Of a DNA stretch of 64,000 bases, positions 32,101 through 35,100 are shown piece after piece. The DNA is from Escherichia coli (GTDB taxonomy: Bacteria > Pseudomonadota > Gammaproteobacteria > Enterobacterales > Enterobacteriaceae): assembly GCF_003334355.1 (NCBI RefSeq), contig NZ_QOWP01000002.1; one strand, written 5' to 3'. Each line of letters starts with the position of its first letter. Positions within the stretch are counted from its first letter, which is position 1. A program made the position numbers.

Positions 32101-35100
32101 AATGCTTAAGTATGCATTTCAATGCACCACGATAGTGCAACAAACCTGGCGTGCACCATGATGATCATTCCATCAGGTACAGCTTCCCAGCGACGTATCA
32201 GTCACCGTAGACATTAAAGTCGAAATACTTTTTCGCCATCTTGTCGTAGGTGCCGTCCTGACGCAGCTCGCCAAGCGCCTTATTGAAGGCAGCCGTCAGT
32301 TCAGCATCATCTTTACGTAGCCCTACACCGGTGCCATCACCGAAGTATTTTTTGTCTTTTACTGATGAGCCAGCAAAGGCGAAATCTTTACCAGCAGGTT
32401 GCTTGAGGAATCCTTCGCTGGCAGCAACTTCATCTTGTAACGCAGCATCCAGACGTCCTGCAGCCAGATCGGAATAGACCAAATCCTGGTTGGCATAGGC
32501 CACCACATCCACGCCTTTACTACGCCAGGTCTCGTTAGCGTAAGCTTCCTGGGTTGATCCCTGCAGCACACCAACATGTTTACCTTTCAGTGAATCCAGC
32601 GTTGGCTGAATCGGTGAACCTTTGGCCGCAATCAAACGAGAATCTGCGGCGTACAGCTTGTCGGAGAAGGCAATCTCCTGCTGACGTTTATCGGTAATGG
32701 AAAGCGACGAAATAATAGCGTCGATTTTTTTCGCTTTCAGTGAGGGGATCAGCGCGTCAAAGTCACTGGCAACCCAGGTACATTTCACCTGCATCCGTTT
32801 GCACATCTCGTTACCGAGATCGATATCAAAGCCAACAAAATCACCTTTAGCATCTTTCGATGAGAACGGTGCGTAGGTGGTATCGGTTCCGATACGTACC
32901 GTCTCCGGTAGCGCCGCATAGCTGGAAGCCGCTGTGGAGAGACCGACTAACAAAGACAGAGCGAGAATCGACTTCTTCATACATAACCCTCAAGTGAAAA
33001 TGGCTTTTTTATGTTGTGTATTGTGTTGTGTGTTTGCAGGCTCTTTCATGCAGGTCTTATGCCATCTTGACGACAACAGTAACATTCAACGTTAAATATG
33101 TTAATAAGACGTTGCATTATTGTCCTGAAGTTGAAGATAGCAGGTATAGCGGTTGAATCGCAGCGTTTCGATTGAATGGCAGAAACAAAATGTCGAGGAT
33201 TTGATCGCGGTTGCAAAATTGCCCTGAAACAGGGCAACAGCGGAGTTATGCGCCCTGCCAGCGGGCAAAGAGATCTTCAGGAAGGGTTATCGCAAACTGG
33301 TCAAGAACACGATTAACCGTCTGATTTATCACATCATCAAGGGATTGCGGGCGATGATAAAACGCCGGAACGGGAGGCATAATCACCGCACCGATTTCTG
33401 CCGCCTGAGTCATTAAACGCAGATGGCCTAAGTGCAATGGTGTTTCACGCACGCAGAGCACCAACGGGCGACGCTCTTTCAGCACCACATCTGCCGCACG
33501 GGTCAGTAAGCCATCAGTATAGCTATGGACAATGCCGGAAAGGGTTTTGATTGAACAGGGTAAAATCACCATCCCCAGCGTCTGGAAAGAACCGGAAGAG
33601 ATGCTGGCGGCAATATCGCGCGCATCGTGCGTGACATCGGCTAATGCCTGCACTTCGCGCAGAGAAAAATCCGTTTCGAGGGATAAGGTCTGGCGCGCTG
33701 CCTGGCTCATCACCAGATGCGTTTCGATATCTGTGACATCGCGCAGAACCTGTAATAAGCGCACGCCATAAATCGCGCCGCTGGCACCGCTGATGCCTAC
33801 AATGAGTCGTTTCATAAATAGTTGCCCTGTCAGACTTGCAGGCAGACTTTGCAGGATTTCGGCGGGAGTTGCAAGTCAGGGTGCCAGACCGGCACCCTCA
33901 GCGAAGGCATCATCCTTCGTTATGCATTTCGAGATTTTCCACTTCGTTCTGACGTTGCACTGCTTTGGCGTCATCATTACGTAACGTATCGAGGAAATCG
34001 AGGTAGCCCTGATCAACGTCTTTGGTGACGTAGACGCCGTTGAATACCGAGCATTCAAACTGCTGAATATCCGGGTTTTCCGCGCGGACGGCTTCGATCA
34101 GATCGTTCAGATCCTGGAAAATCAACCCGTCAGCACCGATGATCTGGCGAATTTCATCCACTTCACGACCGTGAGCGATTAGCTCCGTGGCGCTCGGCAT
34201 ATCAATACCATAAACGTTCGGGAAGCGAATTTCCGGTGCCGCAGAAGCGAGGTACACTTTCTTCGCTCCGGCTTCGCGTGCCATCTCGATAATCTGCTCA
34301 GAAGTGGTGCCACGGACGATGGAGTCGTCGACCAGCAGGACGTTTTTATCGCGGAACTCGGCGCGGTTGGCATTCAGTTTACGGCGCACGGACTTACGAC
34401 GCAGCTGCTGGCCCGGCATGATAAAGGTGCGGCCAACATAGCGGTTTTTAACGAAGCCCTGGCGGTACGGTTTGCCCAGAATACGAGCAATTTCCAGCGC
34501 GATATCACACGAGGTTTCTGGGATCGGGATCACCACGTCGATATCCAGATCTTCCCATTCGCGGGCAATTTTCTCGCCCAGTTTCGTGCCCATATTCACA
34601 CGCGCGCTGTAAACGGAAATTTTGTCGATGAACGAGTCCGGGCGAGCAAAGTATACATACTCAAACAGGCACGGATTGCTGACCGGATTGTCAGCACATT
34701 GACGGGTAAACAACTGCCCTTCTTCAGTGATGTAAATCGCTTCGCCCGGCGCGACGTCACGCAGGAAATCAAAGCCCAGCGTATCGAGCGCTACGCTTTC
34801 GGAAGCGACCATATATTCTGTACGGTTCTCGTCAATATCACGTTTTCCCAGTACCAGCGGACGAATCCCGTTTGGATCGCGGAAAGCAACCATACCGTGG
34901 CCGATAATCATCGCCACACAGGCATACGCGCCGCGGATTAAGCGGTTTGTGGCAGCAATGGCAGCGAAAATATTGTCGGCTTCCAGCGGGTAGTGGCGGA
35001 AATTGTCCAGCTCGCTGGCGAAGATATTAAGCAGAATTTCCGAGTCGGAAGTGGTGTTGATGTGGCGGCGTTTTTCTTCAAACAGTTTTTTACGCAACTC

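What the first reader, a model, noticed from the sequence alone, without database searches (positions are those of the whole stretch)
32123..32165. NtrC-like palindromes between argT and hisJ
TGCACC-N5-AGTGCA (32123-32139) and a nearby GCGTGCACC half-site resemble NtrC enhancer sites and lie about 150-190 bp upstream of the hisJ start. A corresponding sigma-54 promoter for hisJ is only weakly supported, so the sites could act on hisJ through looping or could be vestigial.
Basis: inference. Interest (0 to 1): 0.3.

Follow-up and report, generated by a model that had tools for sequence, protein, structure and literature searches.

The report
Known NtrC enhancer upstream of hisJ
The palindrome is a real, strongly conserved binding site for the nitrogen regulator NtrC in front of the E. 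coli histidine transport operon hisJQMP, a place where NtrC binding in living cells has already been published, so it is ordinary, although which promoter NtrC acts on there is still not settled.

Summary
The window is E. coli chromosome, identical to K-12 MG1655 in this spacer. TGCACCACGATAGTGCA lies at 32123-32139. It has one mismatch to TGCACC-N5-GGTGCA and is the only match that close in 64 kb. The exact half-site TGCACC lies at 32152-32157.

Both sit in the 220-bp argT-hisJ spacer, 146-180 bp upstream of the hisJ ATG.

This is known biology. The published NtrC ChIP-seq peak named hisJQMP (Brown 2014, 23.7-fold) maps to window 32108-32188.

In 77 Enterobacteriaceae spacers, NtrC-like sites are 40 times denser than in the flanking DNA. 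They occupy fixed slots upstream of a TGGCAC-N5-nTGCA sigma-54-type element.

The site matches the consensus as well as the footprinted glnA, nac and glnH sites.

In Escherichia the -12 C is a T (10.9 bits, against 16.9 in Citrobacter). Sigma-54 ChIP-seq reports no hisJ site. The mapped start (32026) fits a sigma-70 promoter whose extended -10 overlaps TGGCAC.

Best reading: this is the NtrC enhancer of hisJQMP, with ArgR boxes between it and an overlapping sigma-70/sigma-54 promoter.

Verdict: already known, low interest.

The parts
32123..32139 (.). Main NtrC site. It is a 17-bp dyad, TGCACTATCGTGGTGCA in the hisJ-sense direction, centred at 32131. That is -154 from the hisJ ATG, -105 from the mapped start at 32026, and -116 from the start predicted for the sigma-54-type element.
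   Evidence: One mismatch to the consensus and unique in the window. It lies inside the published NtrC ChIP-seq peak. It matches the consensus as well as the glnA -140, nac -152 and glnH -108 sites found by the same scan. Conserved in Escherichia and across the family.
32152..32168 (.). Upstream weak NtrC site. The exact half-site GGTGCA (- strand 32157-32152) is paired with a degenerate partner half (ATGATC). Its centre is at 32160, 29 bp upstream of the main site.
   Evidence: GGTGCA is among the most conserved columns of the 35-species alignment. The same 29-30 bp spacing recurs in other genera, and some genera carry a full palindrome here. In E. albertii it reads GGGGCA.
32176..32181 (-). 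Half-site-like hexamer TGTACC. With GGTGCA at 32157-32152 it forms the arrangement TGCACC-N18-GGTGCA.
   Evidence: It reads TGCACC or CGCACC in two other Escherichia lineages. GCACC is conserved at this position in Citrobacter, Salmonella and Enterobacter. This is the weakest part, and binding is inferred only.
32080..32118 (-). Two ARG boxes (the ArgR operator) at 32118-32101 and 32097-32080, 3 bp apart. They start 4 bp downstream of the main NtrC site.
   Evidence: This is one of only three box pairs of this quality in the 64 kb, against 0.1 expected by chance. TGCATAnTTAAGCA is almost invariant across genera. ArgR binding to the hisJ control region is published, as is the placement 17 bp upstream of the -35, and that placement fits these coordinates.
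32026..32062 (-). Sigma-70 promoter of hisJ. The -35 is TTGCCT (32062-32057), followed by an 18-bp spacer that ends in TGg (32041-32039), then the -10 CACGAT (32038-32033). The start is at 32026, giving a 49-nt leader.
   Evidence: Start-site sequencing (Kim 2012) places the hisJ start at NC_000913.2 2424859, which is window 32026. The printed upstream sequence matches the window. The assignment of the hexamers is my inference. TTTGCC and TGGCAC are invariant across genera.
32026..32042 (-). Sigma-54-type -24/-12 element ATGGCACGATAAGTGTA, with GT instead of GC at -13/-12. It overlaps the sigma-70 -10. The predicted start is about 32015.
   Evidence: A matrix built from 135 ChIP-bound sites scores it at 10.9 bits, the 10th percentile of those sites. 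Citrobacter-type ...CTGCA scores 16.9 bits and Buttiauxella 18 bits. It is not detected by sigma-54 ChIP-seq or RpoN SELEX in E. coli.
31195..31977 (-). hisJ, the first gene of hisJQMP and the presumed target.
   Evidence: ORF and RefSeq annotation.
32198..32980 (-). argT, the upstream gene. Its stop codon lies 33 bp upstream of the nearest part of the finding's span, and no terminator lies in between.
   Evidence: ORF and annotation. No intrinsic terminator in the spacer.

Best explanation
The palindrome and its flanking half-sites are the upstream activating sequence (enhancer) through which phosphorylated NtrC controls the hisJQMP transporter operon under nitrogen limitation.

Proposed sequence of events:
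1. NtrC dimers bind the strong dyad at 32123-32139 (shown in vivo at region level).
2. They recruit further dimers to the weak site 29 bp upstream, forming the active oligomer (inferred by analogy with glnAp2).
3. The oligomer contacts sigma-54 RNA polymerase at the -24/-12-type element about 90 bp downstream, at 32042-32026 (inferred).
4. Looping runs across the AT-rich, ArgR-bound ARG boxes that lie in between (inferred).

That element overlaps the sigma-70 promoter (start 32026) that serves in nitrogen excess and is weakly repressed by ArgR. In Escherichia the sigma-54 element carries a -12 C-to-T change and a 20-bp deletion has removed a third NtrC site. The sigma-54 route is therefore probably weaker here than in Citrobacter, Klebsiella or Buttiauxella.
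For: Shown, from published data mapped onto the window:
- The NtrC ChIP-seq peak for hisJQMP lies at window 32108-32188 with 23.7-fold enrichment, in the same range as astC and ddpX.
- Brown et al. report all 21 bound units as up-regulated with increased RNA polymerase binding in nitrogen starvation, and list hisJQMP as a known NtrC-regulon member.
- hisJ is counted as a known sigma-54 target in the data set used by Kroner et al..

Shown here:
- The site has one mismatch. The same scan returns the footprinted glnA sites at -140 and -108, which validates the method.
- Sites are enriched 40-fold in 77 orthologous spacers.
- They sit in three preferred slots, about 90, 112 and 141 bp from the -24 G.
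- TGGCAC is invariant, and GC is kept at -13/-12 in 57 of 74 loci. Scores reach 16-18 bits in many genera, including a differently spelled but very strong element in Buttiauxella.
- The 20-bp Escherichia deletion moves the site pair by about two helical turns.
- A -12 T is compatible with sigma-54 binding: pspA, pspG and Salmonella hydN carry it.
- The layout NtrC sites, ARG boxes, sigma-54 element fits the published ArgR binding at hisJ.
Against: - Sigma-54 ChIP-seq in E. coli lists argT but not hisJ among 135 sites, in the main tables and the supplements.
- RpoN holoenzyme SELEX, with or without NtrC, lists only the argT-ubiX spacer.
- The Salmonella sigma-54 study does not mention hisJ in its main text.
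- NtrC SELEX in vitro shows no spacer peak at the 40% cut-off.
- The only mapped start (32026) is of sigma-70 type. It was obtained in cultures not described as nitrogen-limited.
- The E. coli element scores no better than 15 other places in the window.
- The NtrC ChIP peak lies 133 bp upstream of the predicted sigma-54 start. At 13 other promoters the peak centre is within 40 bp of that start.
- NtrC-like sites persist in lineages that have lost GC at -13/-12.
- With no terminator after argT, read-through from the argT sigma-54 promoter could account for nitrogen induction of hisJQMP.
Confidence: 0.6

Rival explanations
1. NtrC binds here, but in Escherichia the site no longer drives a hisJ sigma-54 promoter. 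Nitrogen induction of hisJQMP would then come mainly from read-through of argT transcripts. The enhancer would be kept because it serves the argT sigma-54 promoter (33049-33065) by looping from about 0.93 kb downstream, or simply because it has not yet decayed.
For: - E. coli, Salmonella, most Citrobacter species and Kluyvera, of the genera I checked, have no NtrC-like site with <=3 mismatches within 400 bp upstream of argT. E. coli also has no exact half-site there.
- The argT ChIP signal is weak (5.4-fold) and was added by eye. The spacer peak is 23.7-fold.
- There is no sigma-54 signal at hisJ.
- There is no terminator between argT and hisJ, and several groups treat argT-hisJQMP as one operon.
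- NtrC sites persist regardless of the quality of the hisJ -12 element.
- From established knowledge of glnAp2: NtrC sites can act at kilobase distances and from downstream.
Against: - The slots of the sites are fixed relative to the hisJ element, which is what a local promoter would require.
- An argT promoter fragment moved to the lac locus still responds to loss of GlnK (2.4-fold). The extent of that fragment is not given in the text I read.
- Other genera carry their own consensus site about 277 bp upstream of argT and still keep the spacer sites.
Confidence: 0.2
2. NtrC bound here modulates the sigma-70 hisJ promoter or its ArgR operator rather than activating sigma-54. It might compete or cooperate with ArgR, whose first box starts 4 bp from the dyad. 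Or it might repress an upstream sigma-70 promoter, as NtrC does at glnAp1.
For: - The dyad is immediately next to ARG box 1.
- Shimada 2014 predicted a sigma-70 promoter, TTGAAA-16-TTTAAT, at 32122-32095, directly abutting the dyad.
- The ChIP peak sits on the dyads rather than on a promoter.
Against: - The only mapped start is 32026, and none fits the predicted upstream promoter.
- TTGAAA varies within Escherichia.
- From established knowledge, NtrC is not known to activate sigma-70 promoters. Yet hisJQMP goes up, not down, in nitrogen starvation.
Confidence: 0.08
3. The palindrome is a chance dyad or an RNA element, such as an argT terminator or a 3'-UTR hairpin, and not a protein-binding site.
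For: - One <=1-mismatch hit per 64 kb is not rare by itself.
- The argT 3' region folds somewhat better than shuffles (z = -2.2).
Against: - In the minimum-energy fold the dyad does not pair with itself, and no U-run follows it.
- No terminator was called at the dyad; the only call in the spacer is a weak one further downstream at 32083-32070.
- There is no Rfam match.
- The half-sites are conserved while the 5-bp spacer varies, which is the signature of a protein site.
- A published NtrC ChIP peak covers it.
Confidence: 0.02

Closest known systems
glnAp2 enhancer of E. coli glnALG (NtrC sites 1 and 2)
   Same: - Both use the same 17-bp dyad. glnA carries TGCACCAACATGGTGCT at -140 and AGCACTATATTGGTGCA at -108. 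hisJ carries TGCACTATCGTGGTGCA at -116 from the predicted sigma-54 start.
- Both have two sites about three helical turns apart: 32 bp at glnA and 29 bp here.
- Both combine a sigma-70 promoter for nitrogen excess with a sigma-54 element.
   Different: - At hisJ the second site is only a half-site.
- The sigma-70 and sigma-54 elements overlap at hisJ, whereas at glnA they lie about 115 bp apart.
- The sigma-54 element lacks the -12 C and is not occupied in ChIP-seq.
astCADBE control region (NtrC sites, ArgR sites, sigma-54 promoter)
   Same: - The order of elements is the same: NtrC sites far upstream (-253 and -233 in my scan), ArgR sites between them and the -24/-12 promoter.
- Both operons belong to the arginine and nitrogen regulons.
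   Different: - At astC the role of ArgR as an architectural co-activator comes from the literature as I recall it, and I did not check it here.
- At hisJ ArgR is published only as a weak repressor of the sigma-70 promoter.
- The astC sigma-54 promoter is canonical and ChIP-bound.
Overlapping sigma-70/sigma-54 promoters of glmY and glmZ
   Same: A sigma-54 -24/-12 element is superimposed on a working sigma-70 promoter, so that two holoenzymes compete for one stretch of DNA (as described).
   Different: - The activator is GlrR, not NtrC.
- glmY is the strongest sigma-54 ChIP site in the data set, whereas hisJ gives no signal.
Salmonella typhimurium dhuA (hisJ promoter) and argTr nitrogen control region (Ames laboratory, 1980s)
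   Same: It is the orthologous region. The Salmonella spacers in my set carry TGCACTTTTTTGGTGCA or TGCACCATTTTGGTGCA at -174 and TGGCACGATAGCCGCA at -61.
   Different: - I could not read those papers. What they footprinted is my recollection, not a checked fact.
- Salmonella keeps the 20 bp that Escherichia lacks, and it keeps GC at -13/-12.

Membership tests
NtrC (GlnG) enhancer site of the Ntr regulon | A 17-bp dyad close to TGCACC-N5-GGTGCA | tested here: met
   One mismatch. It matches the consensus as well as the best sites at glnA, nac and glnH found by the same scan.
NtrC (GlnG) enhancer site of the Ntr regulon | NtrC occupancy in vivo under nitrogen starvation | tested here: met
   The published ChIP-seq peak for hisJQMP (23.7-fold) maps to window 32108-32188, using an offset validated at two independent landmarks. 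The peak is 80 bp wide, so it identifies the region but not the individual site.
NtrC (GlnG) enhancer site of the Ntr regulon | Binding of purified NtrC-P in vitro | tested here: inconclusive
   NtrC genomic SELEX lists no argT-hisJ spacer peak at its 40% cut-off. That list also lacks other accepted targets such as yeaG and ddpX. No footprint of this site is available to me.
NtrC (GlnG) enhancer site of the Ntr regulon | Two or more sites placed so that dimers can build an oligomer | tested here: inconclusive
   The second element is an exact half-site 29 bp upstream, and a third half-site-like hexamer lies further up. The spacings recur in other genera. Cooperative binding cannot be tested here.
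NtrC (GlnG) enhancer site of the Ntr regulon | Lies about 80-150 bp upstream of a sigma-54 promoter that it activates | tested here: inconclusive
   A sigma-54-type element sits at the right distance, with the site centre at -116. It is weak in E. coli and is not bound in sigma-54 ChIP-seq or SELEX.
NtrC (GlnG) enhancer site of the Ntr regulon | The downstream operon is NtrC-dependent | not testable with these tools
   Brown 2014 lists hisJQMP as a known regulon member, citing Zimmer 2000, and as up-regulated in nitrogen starvation. I could not read Zimmer 2000.
NtrC (GlnG) enhancer site of the Ntr regulon | Conserved in orthologous control regions | tested here: met
   70 of 77 spacers carry a site with <=2 mismatches. 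Sites are enriched 40-fold over flanking DNA and occupy fixed slots.
Sigma-54 (-24/-12) promoter | GG-N10-GC with TGGCAC-N5-TTGCA-like flanks | tested here: not met
   E. coli has TGGCACGATAAGTGTA, with GT at -13/-12. It scores 10.9 bits, the 10th percentile of bound sites. Only 4 of 135 bound sites have T at -12. Most other genera meet the rule: 57 of 74 keep GC.
Sigma-54 (-24/-12) promoter | Occupied by sigma-54 holoenzyme | tested here: not met
   It is absent from the 135-site ChIP-seq list and its supplements, and from the RpoN SELEX tables.
Sigma-54 (-24/-12) promoter | Transcript start 11-13 nt downstream of -12, dependent on rpoN | not testable with these tools
   The only start on record, 32026, lies inside the element and fits a sigma-70 promoter. 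I found no start-site data from nitrogen-limited cells.
Intrinsic terminator of argT | G+C-rich hairpin followed by a U-run | tested here: not met
   No terminator was called at the dyad. The dyad is not a hairpin in the minimum-energy fold, and no U-run follows it.

The most novel reading that the evidence does not exclude
In Escherichia, and perhaps in Salmonella, Citrobacter and Klebsiella, the strong NtrC sites in the argT-hisJ spacer may be a shared, bidirectional enhancer.

- They would activate the argT sigma-54 promoter from about 0.93 kb downstream. That promoter has no recognisable NtrC site of its own in these genera.
- The hisJ sigma-54 element, weakened by the -12 C-to-T change, would contribute little.
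- This would explain three observations: the ChIP peak sits on the enhancer and not on a promoter; the argT signal is weak; and the sites persist where the hisJ -12 element has decayed.
Probability: 0.15. Interest if true: 0.45.

Novelty: already known. Interest (0 to 1): 0.15.

Why it matters
hisJQMP and argT encode the main histidine and basic amino-acid scavenging transporter, and they are classic members of the Ntr regulon. Pinning the published ChIP peak to a specific dyad gives a precise target for mutagenesis.

Two open questions are modest but real:
- Does E. coli still use a sigma-54 promoter at hisJ?
- Does one enhancer serve two promoters that lie 0.9 kb apart on either side of it?

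The family-wide comparison also gives a small example of regulatory turnover. The activator sites stay while the -12 element of the promoter drifts. Neither point changes the general picture of NtrC function.

Tried and rejected
1. Chance dyad: rejected by the conservation and enrichment data.
2. argT terminator or structured RNA: rejected.
3. ARG boxes overlapping the dyad at 32128-32111. This was my first guess from reading the sequence. I replaced it with 32118-32101 and 32097-32080. Those coordinates score best, match the invariant TGCATAnTTAAGCA block and reproduce the published 17-bp distance to the -35.
4. Sigma-70 promoters other than TTGCCT-N18-CACGAT, namely TATAAA at 32005-32000 and Shimada's TTGAAA-16-TTTAAT. 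The mapped start at 32026 does not support them.
5. A sigma-54 promoter under the ChIP peak itself. The only candidate is a weak + strand 17-mer at 32146-32162 (8.5 bits), and it is not in the ChIP list.
6. Correlation between sigma-54 element quality and NtrC site quality across genera: none found (rho 0.10, p 0.40). This test is not corrected for phylogeny.
7. Literature that I could not obtain: Reitzer and Schneider 2001, Ames and Nikaido 1985, Zimmer 2000 and Caldara 2007. A full-text search for the exact site strings found no paper. One search on 'dhuA' returned nothing useful.
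Full report
**Where we are.**
- The window is E. 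coli chromosome. The stretch 31900-33300 is 100% identical to many complete genomes and is present in all 5426 of them.
- Around the finding all genes run on the - strand: hisP, hisM, hisQ, hisJ (31195-31977), argT (32198-32980), ubiX and purF.
- The finding lies in the 220-bp argT-hisJ spacer (31978-32197). In this spacer the window is identical to K-12 MG1655.

**The observation.**
- The + strand at 32123-32139 reads TGCACCACGATAGTGCA. In the direction of hisJ it reads TGCACTATCGTGGTGCA.
- This has one mismatch to TGCACC-N5-GGTGCA and is the only match that close in the window. Shuffles give 0.32 such matches per 64 kb, so the hit alone is not remarkable. At two mismatches the window holds no more than chance.
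- The second element is an exact half-site, TGCACC at 32152-32157. Its partner half is degenerate.
- A third half-site-like hexamer, TGTACC, lies at 32181-32176 on the - strand. It reads TGCACC or CGCACC in other Escherichia lineages.

**Published binding.**
- Brown et al. 2014 mapped NtrC by ChIP-seq in nitrogen-starved E. coli, using NC_000913.2 coordinates.
- Their peak 12, assigned to hisJQMP, is 2424941-2425021 with 23.7-fold enrichment. Peak 13, argT, is 5.4-fold and was added by eye.
- I derived the offset from window to NC_000913.2 (2392833) from the MG1655 annotation. I then checked it twice:
  - The argT sigma-54 motif centre given by Bonocora et al. (2425890) falls on the centre of ATGGCATAAGACCTGCA at window 33065-33049.
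  - The hisJ start site given by Kim et al. (2424859, leader 49 nt) falls on window 32026, with the printed sequence matching.
- The hisJQMP peak is therefore window 32108-32188, centred at 32148, between the dyad (centre 32131) and the upstream site (centre 32160).
- Brown et al. also state that all bound units gain RNA polymerase and expression in starvation. They list hisJQMP as a known regulon member, citing Zimmer et al. 2000.
- NtrC binding in this spacer is thus already on record. I found no paper in the held library that prints the site itself, and RefSeq annotates nothing there.

**Calibration.**
- I took 12 NtrC-dependent promoters of MG1655 and placed the start from the sigma-54 motifs of Bonocora et al. 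I then ran the same mismatch scan on each.
- The scan returns the glnA sites at exactly -140 and -108, nac at -152, and glnH at -108, -121 and -134. The method therefore finds real sites.
- The hisJ dyad has one mismatch and sits at -116 from the start predicted for the sigma-54-type element. It is as close to consensus as the best of the known sites.

**Comparative evidence.**
- One scan of species-representative genomes gave 80 loci with hisJ. In 77 of them the whole argT-hisJ spacer could be extracted.
- Sites with at most two mismatches occur at 4.94 per kb in these spacers, against 0.124 per kb in the remaining 421 kb. 70 of the 77 spacers have at least one.
- All sites with at most one mismatch outside the spacer lie about 277 bp upstream of argT, in a subset of genera.
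- A 35-species alignment shows a string of conserved blocks, in hisJ-sense order:
  - the upstream GGTGCA;
  - the TGGTGCA half of the main dyad, whose 5-bp spacer varies freely;
  - TGCATAnTTAAGCA followed by ATGCAAAAA;
  - TTTGCC;
  - TGGCACGATAAC-TGCA;
  - the ribosome-binding region.
- Site centres fall into three slots, about 90, 112 and 141 bp from the -24 G.
- Escherichia lacks about 20 bp that other genera have between the main dyad and the TGCATA block. Many of those genera carry a third NtrC-like site there. The deletion shifts the remaining pair by roughly two helical turns.
- Within E. coli the 166-bp region is at least 99% identical in 5104 of 5422 genomes.
- Across Escherichia the dyad changes only in its spacer.

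**What lies between the sites and hisJ.**
- The blocks TGCATAnTTAAGCA and ATGAAAAATAATACG form two ARG boxes 3 bp apart, at 32118-32080. This is one of three such pairs in the window, against 0.1 expected.
- Published work shows ArgR binding to two boxes in the hisJ control region, 17 bp upstream of the -35, with weak repression. ChIP-exo confirms occupancy.
- With my box coordinates, the -35 is TTGCCT at 32062-32057.
- Eighteen base pairs further on lies CACGAT, preceded by TGg. This is an extended -10, and it places the start at about 32026, which is exactly the published start.
- The invariant TGGCAC therefore belongs to the sigma-70 promoter as well.
- CAC in place of TAT is a poor -10, and it is kept unchanged across a whole family. 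I take this as a sign of a second constraint, namely a sigma-54 -24 element (inference).

**The sigma-54 question.**
- I built a matrix from the 135 ChIP-bound sites of Bonocora et al..
- The E. coli element ATGGCACGATAAGTGTA scores 10.9 bits. That is the 10th percentile of bound sites, and 15 other places in the window score as high.
- The Citrobacter form scores 16.9 bits, Klebsiella 14.2 and Buttiauxella about 18. Buttiauxella uses a different spelling, which argues that a real sigma-54 promoter is ancestral here.
- Escherichia has T at -12. Four of the 135 bound sites do as well, among them pspA and pspG. Salmonella hydN is also bound with TGTA.
- Against use in E. coli:
  - hisJ is in neither the sigma-54 ChIP-seq tables nor their supplements;
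  - the RpoN SELEX lists only the argT-ubiX spacer;
  - the Salmonella study does not mention hisJ in its main text;
  - the NtrC SELEX list has no peak in the spacer.
- In favour: Kroner et al. count hisJ among known sigma-54 targets.

**An oddity.**
- At 13 NtrC-dependent promoters the centre of Brown's called peak lies within -40 to +29 bp of the predicted sigma-54 start. That is on the promoter, not on the enhancer.
- At hisJ the peak lies 133 bp upstream of the predicted start, on the dyads.
- In addition, NtrC-like sites persist whether or not GC at -13/-12 is kept (57 loci keep it, 17 do not; rho 0.10, p 0.40; not corrected for phylogeny).
- E. coli, Salmonella, most Citrobacter species and Kluyvera, of the genera I checked, have no NtrC-like site within 400 bp upstream of argT.
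- No terminator separates argT from hisJ.
- These points keep alive the reading that the spacer sites also, or mainly, serve the argT promoter, and that hisJQMP induction owes much to read-through.

**Rejected readings.**
- The dyad is not a hairpin in the predicted RNA fold and has no U-run after it.
- No Rfam family matches the region.

**Verdict.**
- The element is the NtrC enhancer of the hisJQMP control region and an already published NtrC target.
- Its architecture resembles glnAp2 (two sites about three turns apart, about 110-145 bp upstream). As far as I recall the literature, it also resembles astCADBE, where ArgR sites lie between the NtrC sites and the promoter.
- What remains unsettled is the promoter through which it acts in Escherichia.
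- My estimates are 0.9 that NtrC binds this dyad in vivo, and 0.6 for the full mechanism stated.
- Interest is low.

Noticed in passing
window 32026-32042 (- strand); loci L002-L081: The sigma-54-type element of hisJ has T at -12 in every Escherichia lineage sampled (E. coli, two cryptic clades, E. albertii). Most other Enterobacteriaceae keep GC. The -12 region has also decayed independently in part of Enterobacter, in Silvania and in Phytobacter, while TGGCAC never changes.
   Followed up: yes
window about 32118-32123, compared with L006-L081: Escherichia lacks about 20 bp between the main NtrC dyad and the first ARG box. Many other genera carry a third NtrC-like site there (centre about -152 from the ATG).
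   Followed up: partly
other genera, e.g. L057, L061, L054: Where two NtrC sites lie 22 bp apart, the junction TGGTGCA-N5-TGCAC resembles a sigma-54 -24/-12 element (TGGCAC-N5-TTGCA). It gave 2-3-mismatch hits in my promoter scan, which is a possible source of false sigma-54 predictions.
   Followed up: no
window 33220-33236 (- strand 33236-33220): TGCCCTGTTTCAGGGCA lies just after the ubiX stop codon. It folds into a 9-bp hairpin followed by UUUU, which looks like the ubiX terminator. Other genera have consensus NtrC dyads at a comparable distance upstream of argT (about -277, against -248 here). The E. coli sequence has 4 mismatches to that consensus.
   Followed up: partly
window 33049-33065 and 33126: The argT sigma-54 promoter ATGGCATAAGACCTGCA is bound in ChIP-seq. 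However, start-site sequencing under ordinary growth places the main argT start at NC_000913.2 2425959, which is window 33126, with a 146-nt leader. That is well upstream of the sigma-54 start and implies a second argT promoter.
   Followed up: no
window 31106-31194 (- strand): The hisJ-hisQ spacer folds into a long, stable hairpin (-38 kcal/mol, z = -3.7, no shuffle as stable). This is the position where, as I recall, a stem-loop in the Salmonella operon protects the upstream hisJ message.
   Followed up: partly
window 36059-36097 and 61090-61128: These are the only two other places in the window with a pair of ARG-box-like 18-mers 3 bp apart at the same threshold as the hisJ operator. The first lies upstream of cvpA-purF. 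The second is very AT-rich and may be a composition effect.
   Followed up: no
window 32146-32162 (+ strand): A weak sigma-54-like 17-mer, CTGGCGTGCACCATGAT (8.5 bits), overlaps the upstream NtrC half-site and points antisense into argT. It lies under the centre of the NtrC ChIP peak but is not in the sigma-54 ChIP list.
   Followed up: partly
published coordinates mapped to MG1655 (13 promoters): The NtrC ChIP-seq peak windows called in Brown 2014 are centred on the sigma-54 promoters (-40 to +29 bp from the predicted start). They are not centred on the known enhancer sites, for example at glnA, where the sites are at -140 and -108. hisJQMP is the single exception.
   Followed up: partly
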